From: the human T2T-CHM13v2.0 reference genome, Homo sapiens
Reading direction: 5' to 3' (one strand)
DNA length: 64,000 nucleotides
Assembly (NCBI RefSeq): GCF_009914755.1
Contig: NC_060926.1
Shown here: one piece after another, positions 1 to 13,598 of the stretch
How the letters are laid out: each line of letters opens with the position of its first letter
Numbering within the stretch: the first letter of the stretch is position 1
Notes under the pieces: generated by a model
Database searches by the model: none
What the model saw: the letters and a program-made list of their open reading frames with translations, nothing else
Told to the model about the DNA's origin: nothing
Made by a program: the position numbers and the translations under genes

Positions 1-501
1 TGGGAATGTCTGGGCCTTGAATTCAAGTCCTCTCAGTTGCATAGTCAGCTTCTGCTATTGGAGTATCAGGCACCTAGGCTGGTTAGAGTTGTAGGAGGGG
101 AGAGTGATAGTTTCAGGGCCTGCACCATTGCTTGGTGGAGAAACCAACACTTGAAAACAATACCACCTATGACAACCTATCCTGCTTGTCCCATGGTCTG
201 GATTTCACACTGCTTCCTCTAAAAAAATTTTGTTTTTCATCACAATACTAACAACCACTGGGAAATTGTTGACTAGGCACTATTTGTGGAGAATACACTC
301 AGGGGAGCAATAGCTACACACATCTACTAACTTTTACAGTTTCTGTAACTGCTTGTGAAAAGTCATTTAACTTCCCTAAGCCTCAGTTTCCCCATTTATT
401 AAATAGGAATAACAATGAAAACCAGATGAGACAATGGATTTGAAAGCATATGACAAATTGTAAAATATTGCCAATGATTTAGAAAATAGTGTCATATATA
501 T

Positions 502-1313
502 TGTTAAAGAAAAAATTATCACACTTGTTAAAGTGGTAAGGAAGACTGTTCAGAGAGGGCCATGGTGATAGGAATAGGGATCATTGCAATGGGGTTTTGC
601 AGTGGGGAAGAGAGATTGTACTCAACTCTGACTCCAAAAAGGACGAATGGGGATTTACAACCTAGGAGTGGGGTCAGGGGCAGTGGATGGAAAATTACTA
701 AGAGGAAACACCAAGGATAAGAGGTTTCTGGCTAAACTGACTTGGTAGAGTTATCACTGAAGGATGACCAAGGTGTTCAGATACCAAGGGTGGGAGATAT
801 TCACTAAAGTGACTCAGGAGGATTCTTGATCAAACTGGATTCTATAAGGACAAAAAGGGAAGCCCGAGGTTGGACCTAGTAAAACAAAAGACTCAGAGAA
901 GACTGACTATAATTTTGGTAAAAGGGGAGAGTGTATTAGTTTGTTCTCACACTGCTATACAGAATTACCTGAGACTGGGTAATTTATGAAGAAAAGAGGT
1001 TTAATTGACTCACACTTCCACAGACTGTACAGGAAGCATGGCTAGTAGGTCTCAGGAAACTTACAACCATGGCGGAAGGCAAAGGGGAAGCAAGCACATC
1101 TTACCATCGTGGAGCAAGAGAGAGAGTGAAGGGGGAAGTGCCATACACTTTCAAATAACCAGATCTCACTCATTATCCCAAGAACAGTAAGGGGGAAGTT
1201 CAACCCCATGATTCCATCACTTCCTACCAGGCCCTTCCCCTGACACATTGGGATTACAATTTGAGATGAGATTTGGATGGGGACACAGAGCCAAACCATA
1301 TCAGTCTTTGTCA
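502..1313 (-). mobile_element. ERV1-class LTR (MER31/MER67-like), interrupted by an MSTA-like LTR
   Basis: Ends read TGACAAAGAC...CTTTAACA on the minus strand. Subfamily from recalled consensus. Confidence 0.55.
932..1303 (-). mobile_element. MaLR LTR (MSTA-like)
   Basis: tgtattagtttgttctcacactgct...ccaaaccatatca, the typical MST/THE1 termini. Confidence 0.85.
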
Positions 1314-1380
1314 ATATTTTAATAAATGCTAAAGATGATAAGATTAATAGCCTTGGTACACCAATTAATAATATGTTTCT

Positions 1381-3990
1381 AGAATTGAAAGCAAAAATCA
1401 TATGATCATCTCAATACAGGCAGAAAAAGCTTTTGACAAAATCCAACATCCCTTCATGATAAAAACTCTCAACAGACTGGGCATCAAAGGAACATATGTC
1501 AAAATAATAAAAGCTATCTATGACAAACCCATAGCCAATATCATACTGAATGGGCAAAAGCTGGAACTATTCCCCTTGAGAACTGAAACAAGACAAGGAT
1601 GCTCTCTCTTGCCACTCCTATTCAACATAGTATTGGAAGTCCTAACCAAAGCAATCAGGCAAGATAAAGAAATAAAAGGCATCTGTATTAGTCTGTTCTC
1701 ATGCTGCTAATAAAGACATACCTGAGCCTGAGTAATTTATAAAGGAAAGACGTTCCTTTATAAAGCCACAGTTCCATATGGCTGGGGAGGCTTCACAATG
1801 ATGGCTGAAGGCAAATAAGGAGCAAAGTCACATCTTACAGGGCGGCAAGCAAGAGAGAGCTTGTGCAGGGGAACTCCCATTTATAAAACCATCAGATCTC
1901 ATGAGACTTATTCACTACTATGAGAGCAGTATGGCACAAACTGGCCCCATGATTCAATTATCTCTACCTGGCCCCACCCTTGACACATGGGGATTATTAC
2001 AACTCAAGGTGAGATTTGAGTGGGGATGCAGCCAAACGATATTAGCGTCCAATTAGGAAAAGAAGTCAAACTATTTCTCTTCACTGATGATACAATTCTA
2101 TACTTACAAAACCCTGAAGACTCCTCCAAAGGCTACTAGAATTGATGCATGATTTCAGCAGGGTTTCAGGATAGAAAATCAATATACAAAAAACAGTAGC
2201 ATTTCTGTACACCAATAACGTCCAGGCTGAGAGTAAAATCAAGAACATGACCCCATTTACAATAGCCACAAAGAAAATGAAATACCTGTGAATACAGCTA
2301 ACCAAGGAGGTAAAATATCTTTATAAGGGAAACTACAAAACACTACTGAAAGAAATCAGAGATGACACAAATAAATGGAAAAATATTCTATGATCATGGA
2401 TTAGAAGAAACAATATTGTTAAAATGGCCATACTGCCCAAAACAATTTACAGATTCAATGCTATTCCTATCAAGCTACCAATGTCATTCTTTACAGAATT
2501 AGAAAAAAAGTATTCTAAAATTCATATGGAACCAAAAAAAAAAAAAAAAAAGCCCAAATAGCCAAAGCAATCCTAAGCAAAAAGAACAAAGCCAGAAGCA
2601 TCACACTACTCAATTTCAAACCATATATACTATTAGGCTACAGTAACCAAAATATCATGGTACAGGTAGGAAAACAGACACATAGACCAGTGGAACAGTA
2701 CAAAAAACTCAGAAATAAAGTTGCACACCTACAATCATCTGATCTCCAACAAGACTGACAAAAACAAGCAATGGGAAAAGCACTCCCTAGTCAACAAATG
2801 GTTCTAGGATAACTGGCTAGCCATATGCAGAAGATTGAAACTGGACCCTTACCTTTTACCATATAAAAAAGTAACTCAAGAAGGATTAAAGATTTAAATG
2901 TAAGACCCCAAAATATAAAATTCTAGAAGAAAATCTAGGAAATACCTTTTTCAACATTGGCTTTGGCAAAGAATTTTGGCTAAGTCCCCAAAAGCAATTG
3001 CAACAAAAACAAATATTGACAAGTGGGACCTAATTAAACTAAAGAGCTTCTGCACAGCAAAAGCAACTATTAACAAAGTAAACAGAAAACCTACAGAATG
3101 GGAGAAATTATTTGCAAATTATGCATCTGACAAATGTCTAATATCCACAATCTATAAGGAACTTAAACAGTTCAACAAGCAGAAAAAAAAAATCCCATTA
3201 AAAAATGGGCAAAGGATATGAACAGACATTTCTCAAAAGAAGACATACAAGTGACCAACAAATGCTCATTACTACTCTTCAGAAAAATGCAAATCAAAAC
3301 CACAGTGAGATACAATCTCACACTAGTCAGAATGGCTCTTATCAAAAAGCCAAGAAACAACAGATGCTGGTAAGGCTGTGGAGAAAAGGGAACACTTATA
3401 TACTGTTGGTGGGATGTAAACTAGCTCAGCCACTGTGGAAAGCAGTTTAGACACTTCTCAAGGAACCTAAAACAGAGCTACCATTCAACCCAGCAATCCC
3501 ATTACTGGGTATGTTCCCAAAGGAAAATAGACCATCATACCAAAAAGACACACTTGCACACTCATATGTTCATCACCTTGCTATTCATGATAGCAAAGAC
3601 ATGGAATCAACCTAGGTGCCCATAAATGGTGTATTGGATAAAATATGTGGTACATATACACTATGCAATACTACACAGCCATAAAAAGAATAAAATTCTT
3701 TCCATTGCAGCAACATGGATGGGACTGGAGGCCATAATCTCAAGGGAACAGAAAACCATATCCCACATGCTCTTACTTATAAGTGGGAGCTAAACCTTGA
3801 GCACACATGGACATAAACATGGGAACAATAGACACTGTGGACTACTAGAGGGGGTAGGGAGGAAGGGGTGCGTGGACTGAAAAACCACCTGTTGGGTATT
3901 ATGCTCACTACCTGGGTGCAATATACCTATGTAACAAAGCTGTACATATACCCCCTGTATCTAAAATAAAAGTTGAAATTTTAAAAAAAT
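1381..3990 (+). mobile_element. 5'-truncated L1 (L1PB-type): ORF2 RT/C-terminal remnant plus 3' UTR
   Basis: ORFs [23 protein letters not shown]... and [27 protein letters not shown] are L1 ORF2. A-rich tail. TSD atatgtttct at 1371-1380 and 4000-4009. Confidence 0.95.
1684..2044 (-). mobile_element. THE1 MaLR solo LTR nested in the L1
   Basis: tgtattagtctgttctcatgctgctaataaagacatacc...; 5-bp TSD gcatc/gcgtc; L1 ORF2 resumes after it. Confidence 0.88.
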
Positions 3991-4014
3991 TTTTAAAATA
4001 TATGTTTCTGTGCA

Positions 4015-4509
4015 TTTTTTTTTTTTTTAAGTAGAGACAGTGTCTCTCTGTGTTGGGCTGGGATCAAACTCCTGGCCTTAAGTGACTTACCTGCCTCGGC
4101 CTCCCAAAGTGCTAGTATTATAGGCGTGAGCCACTATGGCTGGCCTGTTTCTGGGCTCTGTCATACTGCCTACACTTTTGTTTATGGTATAGAGACTAAA
4201 TGTGATCAATGGATAATTTTATTTTTTTTTCTTTTGAGAGAGGGTCTCACTCTGTTGTCCATGCTGGAGTGCAGTGGCACAATCAAAGCTCAGCCTTGAC
4301 CTCCTGAGCTCAAACGGTCCTTCCATCTAGCCTCCCGAGTACCTGGGAATACAGGCATGCACCACCACCACACCCAGCTAATTTTTATTTTTATTTTTTG
4401 TTGAGATGGGGTTTTACCATTTGCCTAGGCTGATCTCAAACTCCTGGGTCTCGCCCTCCTTGGCCTCCCAAAGTGTCGAGATTACAGCTGTGAGTCACAA
4501 CTCCTGGCC
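4015..4509 (-). mobile_element. FLAM/Alu monomer (4015-4145) and AluJ (4217-4509)
   Basis: Alu consensus motifs with poly-T heads. Confidence 0.85.
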
Positions 4510-4614
4510 GGATAATTTCGTATATTGGAACACTTTTGTTTAATTTAGCAAAGAACTGCTGTTTGGTAATTTTGATATCACAGTCAATGATGACTATGAG
4601 GAAGAGTAACCTAA

Positions 4615-4821
4615 GTGGGGACTGTGCAGTCTGAGCAGATGGAGTTGTTGATGTGCTGGTGGTTGATGTATCCGCTCCAGCAGAGCATCCAGCCCTTGCT
4701 GTCCACCTGTATACACCAGGTTGCCGCAGCTGAAGCAGGACTGCAGATCACAGTGGTCACTGTTGCACTCACAGTGGTCATTTGCAATGGAATATGCCAA
4801 TAGCAGGGAAATCCTCCCCAG
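4615..4821 (-). pseudogene. Decayed gamma-crystallin gene fragment (exon 1/exon 2 equivalent)
   Basis: Minus strand gives HCECNSDHCDLQSCFSCGN, then after a frameshift IQVDSKGWML, then NNSICS...VP. Compare gamma-crystallin [30 protein letters not shown]...DSxRSCRLIPH. Confidence 0.8.
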
Positions 4822-7589
4822 AATATGTTACCATGAGTTCATGACAAGCCCCTGTTCTAAACTCATCTCACTGTGGCCAGAGGACTGAGGATGCAAAAGC
4901 CAGGGTTGTTCATCAGCTGTAACAGAGACTTGGGAGAGAGAGAGAGAGAGAGACAGAGAGAGAGAGAGCTTGAGCATATTTTAACTTTTATCCTTCATTG
5001 TGTTATAGCTGTGTATCCTTTCTATAATAGCGCTTTGGAGGTCTTTGACGCATTGGAAAAGGAAGGTCAATATATAAAGAAGAAGTTAGAAAAAAATGTC
5101 CTCATCCTCACTGTTTTATTGAATTCTTATGGTTAAGTACAGAAGCAGTGAGAGTAGACAAAATTCACTCTGGAAACTGTGGGTATATCGATTTAAATTT
5201 TGGCAGCCAAGAAGGGCAAACCAGGGAGAACGTTTTTCTTATTTTGCCTTCTAGATTCAGAGTGTCCATGAAAATTTGGGCCTACGGATGGGAGTTGTTC
5301 CCTAAGCCTAGAACACCTTCCCTTCCCCTAAAGCTTGCCAGATCCTGCCCAATATTCAAGGCCGTCCAGGGTCCTCTTCTTAGGAAATCGCTTCTCAGAT
5401 CCAGCCCTTACTCCTCTCTCCCTTCTCTGAACATCAGCATCACCTCATTATTGCTCAGCTTCTTTTAAATATTGTCTTCCTCATGCAGTTTCTCCTTTTC
5501 CAGGTTTATTCTCTTCAAAAGGTTTTTAAGCTCAAGGATAAGGATCATGCCACACTTCTCTATTCCCGATAATGACTTATTAATTAATTGGACAGATAAA
5601 TAGAGCCCTGGTGATTCCTATTCTATTCTGGAAAACAATTACTCTCTCATATGAGGTCACCCCATGTCAAGTTCAAAGACACAGAAGCCACATGTGTTCA
5701 GATATAGGCTTTCTCCTGCTCACTCCTCTACCACATCCACTGCTTCTGATACCCTCCCTTCAGTTCTTTCCAGTCTCTGGTGACCTGGGAAGCCTGAAGG
5801 TAAATAAAAATGACACAGAAGCCTGGCTAGCTGGTGTAGATAGATCATGGGGCGACGTCCCTGGGAGGTGGAAGGAGGTACCTTGGATGGGTAAGCACAC
5901 AACCAGGGCCGTCAGAGTAAGGCCTCAGAACTTACCTCGCATGGCTAATGTAGAGGGACAGGAGAGATGGGCTGACCAAGAGTGTGAAAATGAAAAAGAA
6001 AAGGTGATAAGCAGCATTTTTGTGAAGGGAAATGATGAAAGAGATTCCCAGCCACTTCCTTGTATTTTGGAAGATGGATGGGTCCATGGAAAGAGACATT
6101 GGGTCTTGAATGCAGCAAAACGTGCTTTGTTGGCTGATAATATCTCTTTGTGTCATCAGAATGGGGAGTGAAGACAATGCCGGAGCCTTTTATCCGAGGA
6201 TTTGAATACTGAGTTTAACTCTAAAGTTATACACAAGCTTTTTTCCTTTAAAAATAAGTGCAAAACTTTTCCTTAAAAAATACAGGCCTTATTTAAATCA
6301 GAAAAATTCACCCATTTAAGGTCCTCTAGAATGGTTAATACAAGCTTGTATATCAAAATATTTGAATGGATCTAACAAAACCCTGACTTTTTCCAAAAAC
6401 AGTCATTCATTTAGAAGCCATTAAAGTTAACTGAGGTCTTTTAGAGGCCTCAGTGGGAAACTTCATTACCCTCTCTCCCCTCCCCACACACAAATATTAT
6501 AGCTTATAATCTGATTTTTCCTGTAGCTTTTGCAGACTTCTTTTCCTGGCTCTCTGGTAACCAGCTACATGTCTTCCACATGAAGCCTCCTGAGTTCATC
6601 AGTACATCATTGCATCATTGACATGACCCTGCTGAACTATGCCACGTCTGCCTTTGCTTAAGTGGGTAGGACTGAACCTGCAGCAAACTTTGGAGCACTC
6701 ATTTGGGTCACAATGATAAAAATAATAATACTTAATAATAGCCTACTGTGTCATGAGTGTCTAGTATGTTCCAGACGTTGTACCAGGAATCTTATACAAG
6801 CTGCAACATGTAGCCAACTCAGTCCAATTAACACCAGGACTACCCCTAATATTTGAAAGATATTATGCCTAGAGCATAAATAGAGCCCCTCCCTACTCCA
6901 TGAAGTACCCTCCTTTCTCCCCACTCTCTCACATGTCCAAGTTCTATCCATATGACCCCTCCTCAAACAGCAGCCTGTGGCTATCAGCGTGCCCGGGAGG
7001 ATAGGTCTGGGGAAGACTCCCTCTTAAGTCTTGGAAGTGATCCTGGGTCTAAGTGGAGGGAATTTTGAAGATCCAGGTATAAAGAGTGTGGTCTAGAAGG
7101 AGAGGTGTGGGGATGTCCCATGGCCCCACAAATTCCTGCCCCACTGGGAAGAGTTCAGCTACAGGAAACCAGAGGGAAGTTCTCTGAAGCACCCAGTCCA
7201 GTCTGGGGGTCCTGGTCCACCAACGCTAATCACAGTACTGATCACTAGGGAGAAAAGAATCCGAAAGTTACACATAGCTAGTGAGTGAAAGAACTGGGAA
7301 TAGAACTCAAGTCCATCTACCTCAAGGCCTAAGCTAATTGTCTCTTCATACACTGATGGTTTGTTTTAGATGTTATCTCTTCAGGTGTGCATATCTTATA
7401 TCTTCTCTAAATTATACACTTGTCATAGTAGTTCCTTTGTCATGCTTTTTTTTTTTGAATTTCCACAAAGTCTGCACCCAAATAACCTGTTCAATCCCTA
7501 TGAATTCTGTGCATCTTGGGCTTTAACAGGAATTCCAATATATTCTAGTGGATTGGCCAATTTATTAATTGGTGGAAGGCTGATTTCTT

Positions 7590-7913
7590 TTCTCTTCCTT
7601 TTCTTTTGTTTTGTTTTATTTTGTTTTTTGAGACAGGGTCTTGCTCTGTCATTCAGGCTAGAGTATAGTGGCATGACCACAGCTCACTGCAACCTCTACT
7701 TCCTGGGCTCAAGCGGTCCTCCCACCACAGCCTCCTGTGTAGCTGGGACTACAGGTGTGTGCCACCACACTCGACTAATTTTTTGTATTTTTTGTTAGAG
7801 ACAGGGTTTTGCCATGTTCCCCAGGCTGGTCTCAAATTCCTGGGCTCAAGCAATCTACCAGCCTCAGGCTCCCAAAGTGTTAGGATTACAGGCATCAGCC
7901 ACTGCATCTGGCC
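7590..7913 (-). mobile_element. AluJ
   Basis: Alu consensus with J-type diagnostic positions. Confidence 0.85.
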
Positions 7914-7914
7914 C

Positions 7915-9570
<1,656 letters not shown>

Positions 9571-10379
9571 TTTTGTTTCATAAAGAACTCCACTAACGTA
9601 AAATTCATATACAAAGAACGTGCAGCTCTATTATAGTGGAAAAAAATCACAGAGATATGTAGGATAGCAAACATTAATCACTCACTCTGCATATAGTTGA
9701 GTCCTTTATTTTTATTTTTATTATTATTATTTTTTTAAAAGAGACACGGTCTCACGTTGTCGCCCAGGCTGGTAGTGTTGATCTCCTGGGCTAAAGCAAT
9801 CCATCCACTGTGGCCTCCCAAAATGCTGGGATTATAGGCGTGAGCCACTGTGCCCAGCCAGAGTCTTCAGTAATTTAGTCTTGATAAAAATTCATACTGG
9901 AGTCCAACAGAAGGTGACCACATTGTGATACTGAATTTTAGAAGACACTGTGGATATATTAAATTCTTACATTTGTATAATAATTTAAAGGTAACAAAAT
10001 TTGCTCACAATCTTTTCCCATCATTTCATTGTGATTATCCTGGGATTTAGTGAAGCAAGAATTTATTATTACTTACAGTTTTCAGTAAGGTAATTTAGGC
10101 ACAGAGATGGTACAAAGTGACGTGCTCAAAGAGATAAGCTAGGAAGTGGGGTAACCAACCATTTGGGTTCACCTGACACTGAGGGGCTTTCTGGGATAGA
10201 AGACTTCAAGTGCTAAAATTGGGAGAGTCCCTGGAAAATTGGGCTGGGTTGGTTACTCTACTAGTAAGTAGCAGAGGTAGGCTGTTTAACTCTTGGTTTA
10301 ACACTTTTGCTACCAGATTGCCTAGTGAAGCAGGCTTGCCCTTCTCCACGTGGAAGTTCTCTTTAGAGCTCCTCTCTTC

Positions 10380-11044
<665 letters not shown>

Positions 11045-11144
11045 CTGTCATGGCAATAAACAAAAGAACAAAAATAAACAGCATGCATCCTTGGGTGTCA
11101 ACGAAAGTGACACAATCAGTCTGCATCTTCATGAAGCATGGCTT

Positions 11145-12843
<1,699 letters not shown>

Positions 12844-13189
12844 TTATCTAGATAAACTAGATAGACTTTTCTTTTTTTTCTTTCTTTCTTTTTTTTTTTT
12901 TTACTACTGAATAAGGTGACTTTTATGTAGAAATTAGGGATCACCTAGATGTTACCAAGTTTAATTTAAAGGCTATGTTGTGATTTCCCATGCCCTAAAA
13001 TGATGTCCTTAAGTAAGAAAAATAGAGATTATTGTTACTTTTTTTTTTTATATATGTTTGAGGGTCAGGCCTTGCTATTCTTACTGTGAACACTCATCCT
13101 GTGTTGGAACAAACTGACTTTTATAAACAGGAATTGATGGCCATGGATCATTGATGCTTTCACATCAGTCAAGTTGAAGCAAGACTCAC

Positions 13190-13432
13190 ATGAGGAATTA
13201 TACGGCAGGATTGGACCGAGTCGCTGAGGCCCATCCAGTGCTGATAGTCGGGGTACTTGCCTCGGCGCAGGAAGTACTGGTGGCCCTGGTAATTGGGACG
13301 CTCATAGAGCATCCAGCAGCCGCTGTCTACTCGGATGGAGTTGCAGCGGCTGAAGTAGACCCGCAGGTTGGGGCAGTCACTGATGCAATTGTAGCAGCGA
13401 CCCTGAAAGTCTCGGTCCTCGTAGAAGGTGAT
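13190..13432 (-). CDS. CRYGA: Gamma-crystallin A, exon 2 (Greek key motifs 1-2)
   Basis: cag|ATC ACC TTC TAC GAG GAC...CCT CAT|gtgagt; 243 nt. Translates [81 protein letters not shown]. Confidence 0.98.
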
Positions 13433-13533
13433 CTGAGGTAGAAATAAGGTGACAGTAGACAGTCAGCTGGAAGGAACATCCCCACACACCACAGACCCCC
13501 AATAGACATGGCACAGCACCTCCACAGGCTCAC

Positions 13534-13542
13534 CTTCCCCAT
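13534..13542 (-). CDS. CRYGA: Gamma-crystallin A, exon 1 coding part (Met-Gly-Lys)
   Basis: Minus strand reads ACC ATG GGG AAG|GTGAG. A 9-nt first coding exon followed by a ~100-nt intron is the conserved gamma-crystallin layout. Confidence 0.96.
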
Positions 13543-13598
13543 GGTTGTTGACAGAGGGTGATTAGCATCTAGTATGATAGGGACAAAGGGGCAACTGG

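What the first reader, a model, noticed from the sequence alone, without database searches (positions are those of the whole stretch)
4615..4821. Decayed gamma-crystallin relic ~6 kb downstream of CRYGA, same strand
Seen: the minus strand reads CAC TGT GAG TGC AAC AGT GAC CAC TGT GAT CTG CAG TCC TGC TTC AGC TGC GGC AAC (HCECNSDHCDLQSCFSCGN), then out of frame ATA CAG GTG GAC AGC AAG GGC TGG ATG CTC (IQVDSKGWML), then AAC CAC CAG CAC ATC AAC AAC TCC ATC TGC TCA...GTC CCC. This is colinear with gamma-crystallin exon 2, with an internal deletion. The H-x-E-C and S-D-H pattern resembles the gammaD/E/F branch (HYECSSDH) more than the adjacent CRYGA (CYNCISDC). Inference: an extra, old member of the cluster lying between CRYGA and CRYGB. 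I cannot tell whether it is already catalogued; a quarter-gene fragment is described for this family but I do not know that it is this one.
Basis: partly seen in the sequence, partly recalled or inferred. Interest (0 to 1): 0.72.

Follow-up and report, generated by a model that had tools for sequence, protein, structure and literature searches.

The report
Ancient dead gamma-crystallin gene, CRYGA–CRYGB gap
Between the human lens genes CRYGA and CRYGB lies the badly decayed wreck of one more gamma-crystallin gene (two of its three exons are still recognisable), a harmless fossil that suggests the ancestral mammalian cluster held at least one more gene than the six counted today.

Summary
The minus strand at window 4614-4812 is a decayed copy of gamma-crystallin exon 2. 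A DNA profile of seven human CRYG exon 2 sequences hits 4682-4776 at E=2.9e-10. The best score in 2.6 Mb of reversed or shuffled control sequence was 10.2 bits, against 34.5 here.

A matching exon 3 relic lies about 5.4 kb downstream on the same strand, just outside the window at -810..-1079 (E=3.5e-20). So this is a whole unprocessed pseudogene, not a quarter-gene fragment. Both exons carry frameshifting indels. The exon 2 splice donor is lost, and none of the 12 consensus CpG sites in exon 2 survives. No promoter or exon 1 was detected.

It belongs to the gammaA-F clade rather than gammaS (46 against 7 diagnostic sites).

The published quarter-gene fragment, CRYGGP, lies at 2p16.3 and is a different locus. 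RefSeq, two reviews and five of the six literature searches show nothing named here. GENCODE and other mammals could not be checked.

Verdict: a real, old, non-functional relic, probably uncatalogued, of modest interest.

The parts
4614..4812 (-). Relic of gamma-crystallin exon 2 (N-terminal domain, Greek-key motifs 1-2). It is 199 nt where live genes have 243.
   Evidence: nhmmer core 4682-4776, 34.5 bits, E=2.9e-10. The 3' segment is significant against 5 of 6 paralogs. MAFFT colinearity gives indels of +4, -39 and -9. The outer 5' ~36 nt (4777-4812) are placed only by colinearity and a weak tblastn hit (E 0.66) and are not significant alone.
4609..4614 (-). Position of the former exon 2 splice donor. 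Live genes read GTGAGT; the relic reads TTAGGT, so the GT is lost.
   Evidence: MAFFT alignment with 40-nt flanks and the sequence read.
4716..4719 (-).
   Evidence: nhmmer and MAFFT alignments. The exact placement depends on the alignment.
1..4613 (-). The in-window part of the former intron 2. The whole spacer runs from window -809 to 4613, about 5.4 kb, and is swollen by interspersed repeats. These are a ~2.3 kb dispersed repeat at about window 1381-3998 (itself interrupted at about 1683-2044) and an Alu at about 4214-4517.

THE EXON 3 RELIC LIES JUST OUTSIDE THE WINDOW and cannot be entered as a part of its own. It is at window -810..-1079, which is chr2:208628921-208629190, on the minus strand. 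It is 270 nt where live genes have 273.
   Evidence: Spacer: a genome search with window 1-4611 gave 67,119 first-look candidates, with copies at 76-86% identity over query 614-2568 and 2929-3231. The repeat families are not named because no RepeatMasker was available.

Exon 3 relic: the nhmmer exon 3 profile of 5 genes gives 67.9 bits, E=3.5e-20, model positions 43-260 of 273. The best control score was 3.6 bits. MAFFT gives indels of -4, -1, +4, -1 and -1. All three frames contain stops. It is single copy in the genome.
4813..5100 (-). Where intron 1, exon 1 and the promoter should lie. No recognisable relic was found. A (CT)n microsatellite sits at about 4925-4965.
   Evidence: A profile of 450 nt upstream of exon 2 from 6 paralogs finds only the 5 live or young genes in 124 kb. 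A promoter-plus-exon-1 profile finds nothing in window 4827-10700; its only hit is at 9233-9271, E 5.8. Sequence read.

Best explanation
This is an ancient, unprocessed (DNA-duplicated) gamma-crystallin pseudogene. It lies in the tandem array between CRYGA and CRYGB, in the same orientation as the live genes. It arose as one more tandem copy during the early mammalian gammaA-F radiation. It then lost function and has drifted neutrally ever since.

Shown:
- Homology to exon 2 and to exon 3, in the correct order and on the correct strand.
- Frameshifts, a 39-nt deletion, a lost splice donor and stop codons.
- Wholesale CpG-to-TpG/CpA decay.
- A spacer filled with transposable elements.
- Membership of the A-F clade rather than gammaS.

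Inferred:
- It was once a working lens gene.
- It died near the time of the radiation. The ML branch is 0.66-1.15 substitutions per site. By recalled neutral rates for the human lineage that is of the order of 150-200 million years.
- It now does nothing. It makes no protein, it has no detectable promoter, and it sits antisense inside an intron of lncRNA LOC100507443.
For: - Exon 2 profile hit: E=2.9e-10.
- Exon 3 profile hit: E=3.5e-20.
- Scaled to both strands of a 3.1 Gb genome, these E-values would still be about 1e-5 and 1e-15 (my arithmetic from those calls).
- Each relic matches its own exon type. The exon 3 profile does not hit the exon 2 relic, and the exon 2 profile gives only 3.4 bits on the exon 3 relic.
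- Controls: the best scores in 2.6 Mb of reversed or shuffled sequence were 10.2 and 3.6 bits.
- Across the 124 kb scanned, these are the only extra hits besides the five known genes.
- Of 12 consensus CpG sites in exon 2, the relic has TG or CA at 8, other changes at 2 and deletions at 2. None is kept.
- Relic GC content is 52% in exon 2 and 44% in exon 3, against 62% and 58% in the paralog consensus.
- At sites separating A-F from gammaS, the relic sides 46 with A-F, 7 with gammaS and 9 with neither.
- Both exons are single copy in the genome.
- At least ~2.6 kb of the spacer is repeat sequence. That leaves an intron of a size like CRYGA's 2.1 kb (annotation table).
- Kappe et al. 2010 (PMC2929430, section 12 read) state that the gammaA-F radiation preceded the Prototheria/Theria split. 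That fits so old a relic.
Against: - No promoter, exon 1 or intron 1 relic was found, so a complete three-exon gene is not demonstrated.
- The first ~36 nt of exon 2 are not significant.
- Protein-level tests fail: Pfam gives no Crystall hit and tblastn E is 0.007-1.1 in a 124 kb database.
- Global identity to the paralogs is only 52-60%, so parts of the alignments, the indel list and the branch length depend on the alignment.
- The age rests on neutral rates recalled from memory, not on a cross-species alignment.
- The position in the tree is unresolved.
Confidence: 0.9

Rival explanations
1. It is already catalogued: an annotated CRYG pseudogene in GENCODE/Ensembl, pseudogene.org, or the 1985-1990 cluster papers. 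In that case the relic is real but not new.
For: The cluster has been studied intensively since the 1980s and the region has been fully sequenced for decades. I could not read GENCODE tracks. I also could not read Meakin 1985 (not held), nor den Dunnen 1989 or Brakenhoff 1990 (neither looked up; Brakenhoff 1990 seen only as a reference).
Against: - The RefSeq RS_2025_08 table supplied with the finding has no feature at 4614-4812 or between CRYGB and the window start.
- Wistow 2012 (PMC3554465, passages) lists only CRYGA-D, CRYGEP, CRYGFP, CRYGS, CRYGN and CRYGGP (2p16.3).
- A 2026 review (PMC13326903, passages) names only E and F as pseudogenes.
- Five of the six literature searches found no paper describing an extra relic; the sixth only sought a reference id.
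- Protein-based pseudogene pipelines would probably miss it. A genome-wide search with the CRYGA exon 2 protein at E<=10 returned 40 matches, none of them here. tblastn E-values are 0.007-1.1 even in a 124 kb database.
Confidence: 0.2
2. It is a translocated or partial fragment, like CRYGGP or CRYBB2P1. On this reading it was copied as a piece that was never a working gene, for example exons 2-3 duplicated without a promoter.
For: No promoter or exon 1 relic is detectable. Partial copies are known in this family: Wistow 2012 describes CRYGGP as a translocated remnant and CRYBB2P1 as a partial copy.
Against: - Both large exons are present in order, on the cluster strand, at a spacing typical of the array.
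- At 52-60% identity, a 9-nt exon 1 and a ~50-nt conserved promoter box would not be expected to remain detectable, so their absence says little.
- The expected place is occupied by a (CT)n microsatellite.
Confidence: 0.12
3. It is a chance or compositional resemblance, for example GC-rich or low-complexity sequence that mimics crystallin codons.
For: Protein-level searches are not significant. The 5' end of exon 2 is indistinguishable from shuffles.
Against: - There are two independent DNA-profile hits at E=2.9e-10 and 3.5e-20.
- They are exon-type specific, colinear, on the right strand and inside the cluster.
- Controls reached at most 10.2 and 3.6 bits.
- Differences from the consensus follow the CpG-decay pattern.
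Confidence: 0.01

Closest known systems
CRYGEP and CRYGFP (human gammaE and gammaF pseudogenes)
   Same: Both are unprocessed pseudogenes of the same gammaA-F family. CRYGEP lies in the same tandem array on the same strand.
   Different: E and F are young and 'still largely intact' (Wistow 2012). Here their exon 2 translations are 72-74% identical to CRYGA with a single TAG each, and their promoters align with those of the live genes. The relic is only 52-60% identical at DNA level and has six indels that shift the frame. It has also lost its exon 2 donor and has no detectable promoter.
CRYGGP (gammaG fragment, 2p16.3)
   Different: CRYGGP is an isolated copy of gammaD-like motif 2 only, on 2p and associated with a LINE (Wistow 2012). 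I found it at chr2:51771605-51771757, still in an open frame and 63% identical to CRYGA residues 31-81. The relic lies inside the 2q cluster, has both exon 2 and exon 3, and is far more decayed.
CRYBB2P1 (partial beta-B2 pseudogene)
   Same: It is a DNA-level duplicated pseudogene lying within its parent crystallin cluster.
   Different: CRYBB2P1 is close enough to its parent for gene conversion and mispriming (Wistow 2012). The relic is too diverged for either.

Membership tests
Mammalian gammaA-F crystallin gene family (as a pseudogene member) | Sequence homologous to exon 2 (N-terminal domain) | tested here: met
   nhmmer 34.5 bits, E=2.9e-10; best control score 10.2 bits.
Mammalian gammaA-F crystallin gene family (as a pseudogene member) | Sequence homologous to exon 3 (C-terminal domain), downstream on the same strand | tested here: met
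   nhmmer 67.9 bits, E=3.5e-20, at window -848..-1067; best control score 3.6 bits.
Mammalian gammaA-F crystallin gene family (as a pseudogene member) | Closer to gammaA-F than to gammaS | tested here: met
   Diagnostic sites: 46 with A-F, 7 with S, 9 with neither. K2P distance is 0.60-0.82 to A-F and 1.01-1.32 to S. gammaN and non-human sequences were not included.
Mammalian gammaA-F crystallin gene family (as a pseudogene member) | Short exon 1 (ATG plus two codons), an intron 1 of about 100 nt, and the conserved proximal promoter | tested here: not met
   No hit with the 450-nt upstream profile in 124 kb, nor with the promoter/exon 1 profile in window 4827-10700. The test has low power at this level of decay.
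Functional gamma-crystallin (Pfam Crystall, PF00030; accession recalled) | Open frame encoding Greek-key motifs that the family profile recognises | tested here: not met
   No Crystall match at E<=10 in either open frame of the exon 2 relic. Frameshifting indels are present in both exons. All three frames of the exon 3 relic contain stops.
gammaD/E/F sub-branch | Shares the derived states that separate D,E,F from A,B,C | tested here: inconclusive
   Sites: 5 with D/E/F, 5 with A/B/C, 5 with neither; 4:4:4 in exon 2 alone. Tree support is 52.5/49 and 16.5/36.
CRYGGP | Isolated motif-2 fragment on 2p16.3 | tested here: not met
   The relic is at 2q in the cluster and has two exons. The CRYGGP-like fragment is found separately at chr2:51.77 Mb.
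Processed (retrotransposed) pseudogene | Exons joined without an intron | tested here: not met
   The exon 2 and exon 3 relics are separated by about 5.4 kb.

The most novel reading that the evidence does not exclude
The relic is an uncatalogued seventh founding member of the mammalian gammaA-F cluster, at a slot between gammaA and gammaB. It would have been born in the radiation that preceded the monotreme/therian split and been silenced soon after on the line leading to humans. If so, the ancestral array held at least seven genes, and an intact or less decayed ortholog may survive in some mammal with a hard, gamma-crystallin-rich lens, or in marsupials or monotremes. That would give a new gamma-crystallin type and a dated marker for how the array grew.
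Probability: 0.35. Interest if true: 0.5.

Novelty: new member of a known kind. Interest (0 to 1): 0.33.

Why it matters
[quoted passage not shown] An additional, much older casualty inside the array shows that gene loss began long before the primate-specific silencing of gammaE and gammaF. It raises the minimum size of the ancestral cluster and gives a fixed landmark for reconstructing the order of tandem duplications.

In practice, the relic is too diverged to act in gene conversion or to cause mispriming with the cataract genes, so it has no evident clinical weight. It also illustrates that DNA-profile searches seeded with paralogous exons find relics that protein-based pseudogene pipelines miss.

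Tried and rejected
- Promoter, exon 1 and intron 1 relic: two profile searches found nothing. By eye, a 10-of-12 match to the CRYGA start-codon context lies about 85 nt upstream of the relic exon (near 4901-4912). No test supports it, so I do not claim it.
- Protein-level recognition: Pfam gave no Crystall hit. Its only hit was a sub-threshold Amdovirus NSP match, 16.7 bits against a cut-off of 25, which I treat as chance. tblastn was weak.
- Further relics elsewhere in 124 kb (CRYGEP through C2orf80 and beyond): none.
- LOC100533727, the pseudogene between CRYGC and CRYGB, as a second crystallin relic: rejected. Pieces of it match a locus at chr7:75.43-75.45 Mb and a dispersed repeat, and neither crystallin profile hits it.
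- Topology test (AU) of alternative placements: the script was not run (see the operators' field). The placement therefore rests on unconstrained ML trees and site counts and stays unresolved.
- Classical literature: Meakin 1985 is not held. Brakenhoff 1990 and den Dunnen 1989 were not looked up, and what I say of them is recalled or taken from citing reviews.
- No other mammalian genome was available, so orthology and cross-species dating were not attempted.

Full report
**Setting.** The window is human T2T chr2:208630001-208694000. CRYGA lies at 10708-13575 on the minus strand, and CRYGB lies just before the window start (-7410..-3698, minus), according to the annotation supplied with the finding. 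The finding concerns the minus strand at 4615-4821, about 5.9 kb downstream of CRYGA's last exon.

Translation shows HCECNSDHCDLQSCFSCGN in one frame. IQVDSKGWML and then ...NHQHINNSICSDCTVP follow in the next frame.

With CRYGA alone the signal is marginal. blastn of CRYGA exon 2 gives 67% identity over 86 nt at 4682-4767, E=0.043, and tblastn gives nothing there.

I then collected the exon 2 sequences of all human gamma genes from the same assembly. These were CRYGA, B, C, D, EP, FP and S, with their reading frames checked. I built a DNA profile from them. nhmmer hits window 4776-4682 with 34.5 bits, E=2.9e-10. That is the third-best hit in the window, after CRYGA's own exon 2 and its paralogous exon 3.

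- Controls: in 21 control copies of a 124 kb region (1 reversed, 20 block-shuffled) the best exon 2 score was 10.2 bits.
- Pairwise local alignments give z-scores of 12.2-21.5 against the six cluster paralogs and 2.4 against CRYGS.
The 5' ~36 nt and the acceptor are not significant.
- A MAFFT alignment with flanks shows colinearity over the whole exon, with a 4-nt insertion, a 39-nt deletion and a 9-nt deletion.
- In the same alignment the donor GTGAGT is replaced by TTAGGT.

**What else belongs to it?** I fetched the 60 kb before the window and scanned 124 kb, from beyond CRYGEP to the end of the window, with exon 2 and exon 3 profiles.

Besides the five known genes, the exon 3 profile gives exactly one further strong hit: 67.9 bits, E=3.5e-20, model positions 43-260 of 273. 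It lies on the minus strand at window -848..-1067 (chr2:208628933-208629152), between the exon 2 relic and CRYGB. The best control score was 3.6 bits.

MAFFT extends this hit to the whole exon (window -810..-1079). The extension includes the stop-codon position and the first bases of the 3' UTR, and it shows five small frameshifting indels. All three frames contain stops.

The two relics are exon-type specific. The exon 3 profile does not hit the exon 2 relic, and the exon 2 profile gives only 3.4 bits on the exon 3 relic. Each is single copy in the genome.

The 5.4 kb between them contains a ~2.3 kb dispersed repeat and an Alu. The repeat gave 67,119 first-look candidates, has copies at 76-86% identity and is itself interrupted. 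Without these insertions the spacer is of the size of a normal CRYG intron 2.

No relic of the promoter, exon 1 or intron 1 was found. A (CT)n microsatellite occupies part of the place where they should be.

**How decayed, and how old?**
- Over the full exon alignments the relic is 52-60% identical to the cluster paralogs (K2P 0.60-0.82) and 41-47% identical to CRYGS.
- Of the 12 CpG sites in the paralog consensus of exon 2, the relic has TG or CA at 8, other changes at 2 and deletions at 2. None is retained. This is the signature of long neutral decay in methylated DNA.
- GC content has fallen from 62% to 52% in exon 2 and from 58% to 44% in exon 3.
- The ML branch leading to the relic is 0.66 substitutions per site on the confidently aligned blocks and 1.15 on the full alignment.

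By neutral rates I recall for the human lineage (not computed here), this is of the order of the age of the mammalian crown group. Kappe et al. 2010 (PMC2929430, section 12 read) conclude that the gammaA-F radiation preceded the Prototheria/Theria split. The relic falls inside that radiation: at sites separating A-F from gammaS it sides 46:7, with 9 matching neither. So it was probably born in the radiation and lost early. This dating is an inference. The test is a cross-species alignment, which I could not run.

Local alignment scores are indeed highest for D/E/F. But the sites that separate A,B,C from D,E,F split 5:5:5 overall and 4:4:4 in exon 2. ML trees place the relic beside D/E/F with support of only 52.5/49 or 16.5/36. 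The 3' part of exon 2 aligns best with B and C. The placement is therefore unresolved, as expected for one very long branch in a family known for concerted evolution. An explicit topology test was not run.

**What it does.** Nothing, most probably. It cannot encode a crystallin, given frameshifts in both exons, a 13-codon deletion and stops in exon 3. It has no recognisable promoter and has lost its exon 2 donor. It lies antisense within an intron of lncRNA LOC100507443 (annotation table). It is too diverged from the live genes to take part in gene conversion.

**Comparison with what is known.**
- Wistow 2012 (PMC3554465; passages read) lists the human gamma genes as CRYGA-D, CRYGEP, CRYGFP, CRYGS, CRYGN and CRYGGP.
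- It describes CRYGGP as an isolated gammaD motif-2-like fragment on 2p16.3 associated with a LINE. I found that fragment at chr2:51771605-51771757, still in an open frame. It is not this locus.
- A 2026 review (PMC13326903; passages) names only E and F as pseudogenes.
- Five of the six full-text searches found no description of a relic between CRYGA and CRYGB; the sixth only sought a reference id.
- The RefSeq table has no feature there.
- The neighbouring RefSeq pseudogene LOC100533727 is unrelated to crystallins.

I could not inspect GENCODE, and I could not read the 1985-1990 cluster papers. Meakin 1985 is not held. Brakenhoff 1990 and den Dunnen 1989 were not looked up and are known to me only from recall and citing reviews. 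Supplements of the cited papers were not opened.

Standard protein-based pseudogene detection would probably miss the relic. A genome-wide protein search at E<=10 gave 40 matches, none here. tblastn E-values are 0.007-1.1 even in a 124 kb database.

**Verdict.** This is a real, single-copy, two-exon, heavily decayed unprocessed gamma-crystallin pseudogene between CRYGA and CRYGB. It is distinct from CRYGGP and probably uncatalogued. It is a new member of a well-known kind, of modest interest for the history of the cluster.

Noticed in passing
L009, chr2:51771605-51771757 (minus), outside the window: An isolated half-exon-2 gamma-crystallin fragment that still has an open frame. It is 63% identical to CRYGA residues 31-81 and by eye very close to CRYGD motif 2. 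It matches the published description of CRYGGP at 2p16.3.
   Followed up: partly
L036:5264-7565 (window -14736..-12435), LOC100533727: This RefSeq pseudogene between CRYGC and CRYGB is not crystallin-related. Five pieces of it match a locus at chr7:75.43-75.45 Mb at 74-91% identity. Its middle (query 818-1425) is a dispersed repeat. A 95% identical 0.6 kb copy of that part lies 4 kb away at chr2:208610496-208611102.
   Followed up: partly
window 4925-4965: A (CT)n microsatellite lies directly upstream of the exon 2 relic, where the old promoter and exon 1 would be expected. Near 4901-4912 a 10-of-12 match by eye to the CRYGA start-codon context has the ATG position reading CTG. No test supports it.
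   Followed up: partly
window about 1381-3998: A ~2.3 kb member of a very abundant dispersed repeat family (67,119 first-look candidates; copies 76-86% identical). It is interrupted by a ~0.36 kb insert at about 1683-2044. The family was not named because no RepeatMasker was available.
   Followed up: no
window -19850..-21779 versus the RefSeq CRYGC span -21845..-10882: CRYGC's promoter, exon 2 and exon 3 all lie within -19850..-21779. The RefSeq gene span reaches 9 kb further upstream, presumably because of an alternative upstream exon.
   Followed up: no
L007, CRYGFP upstream region (chr2:209.625 Mb): In the alignment of the 450 nt upstream of exon 2, CRYGFP keeps exon 1 and intron 1. It does not align with the conserved proximal promoter box shared by A-E, where it reads AT-rich repeat-like sequence.
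   Followed up: no
window 4597-4827 (minus), frame translation: A weak sub-threshold Pfam match to Amdovirus NSP 1-3 (16.7 bits, cut-off 25, E 0.0081). It comes from a Cys/His-rich stretch and I take it to be chance.
   Followed up: no
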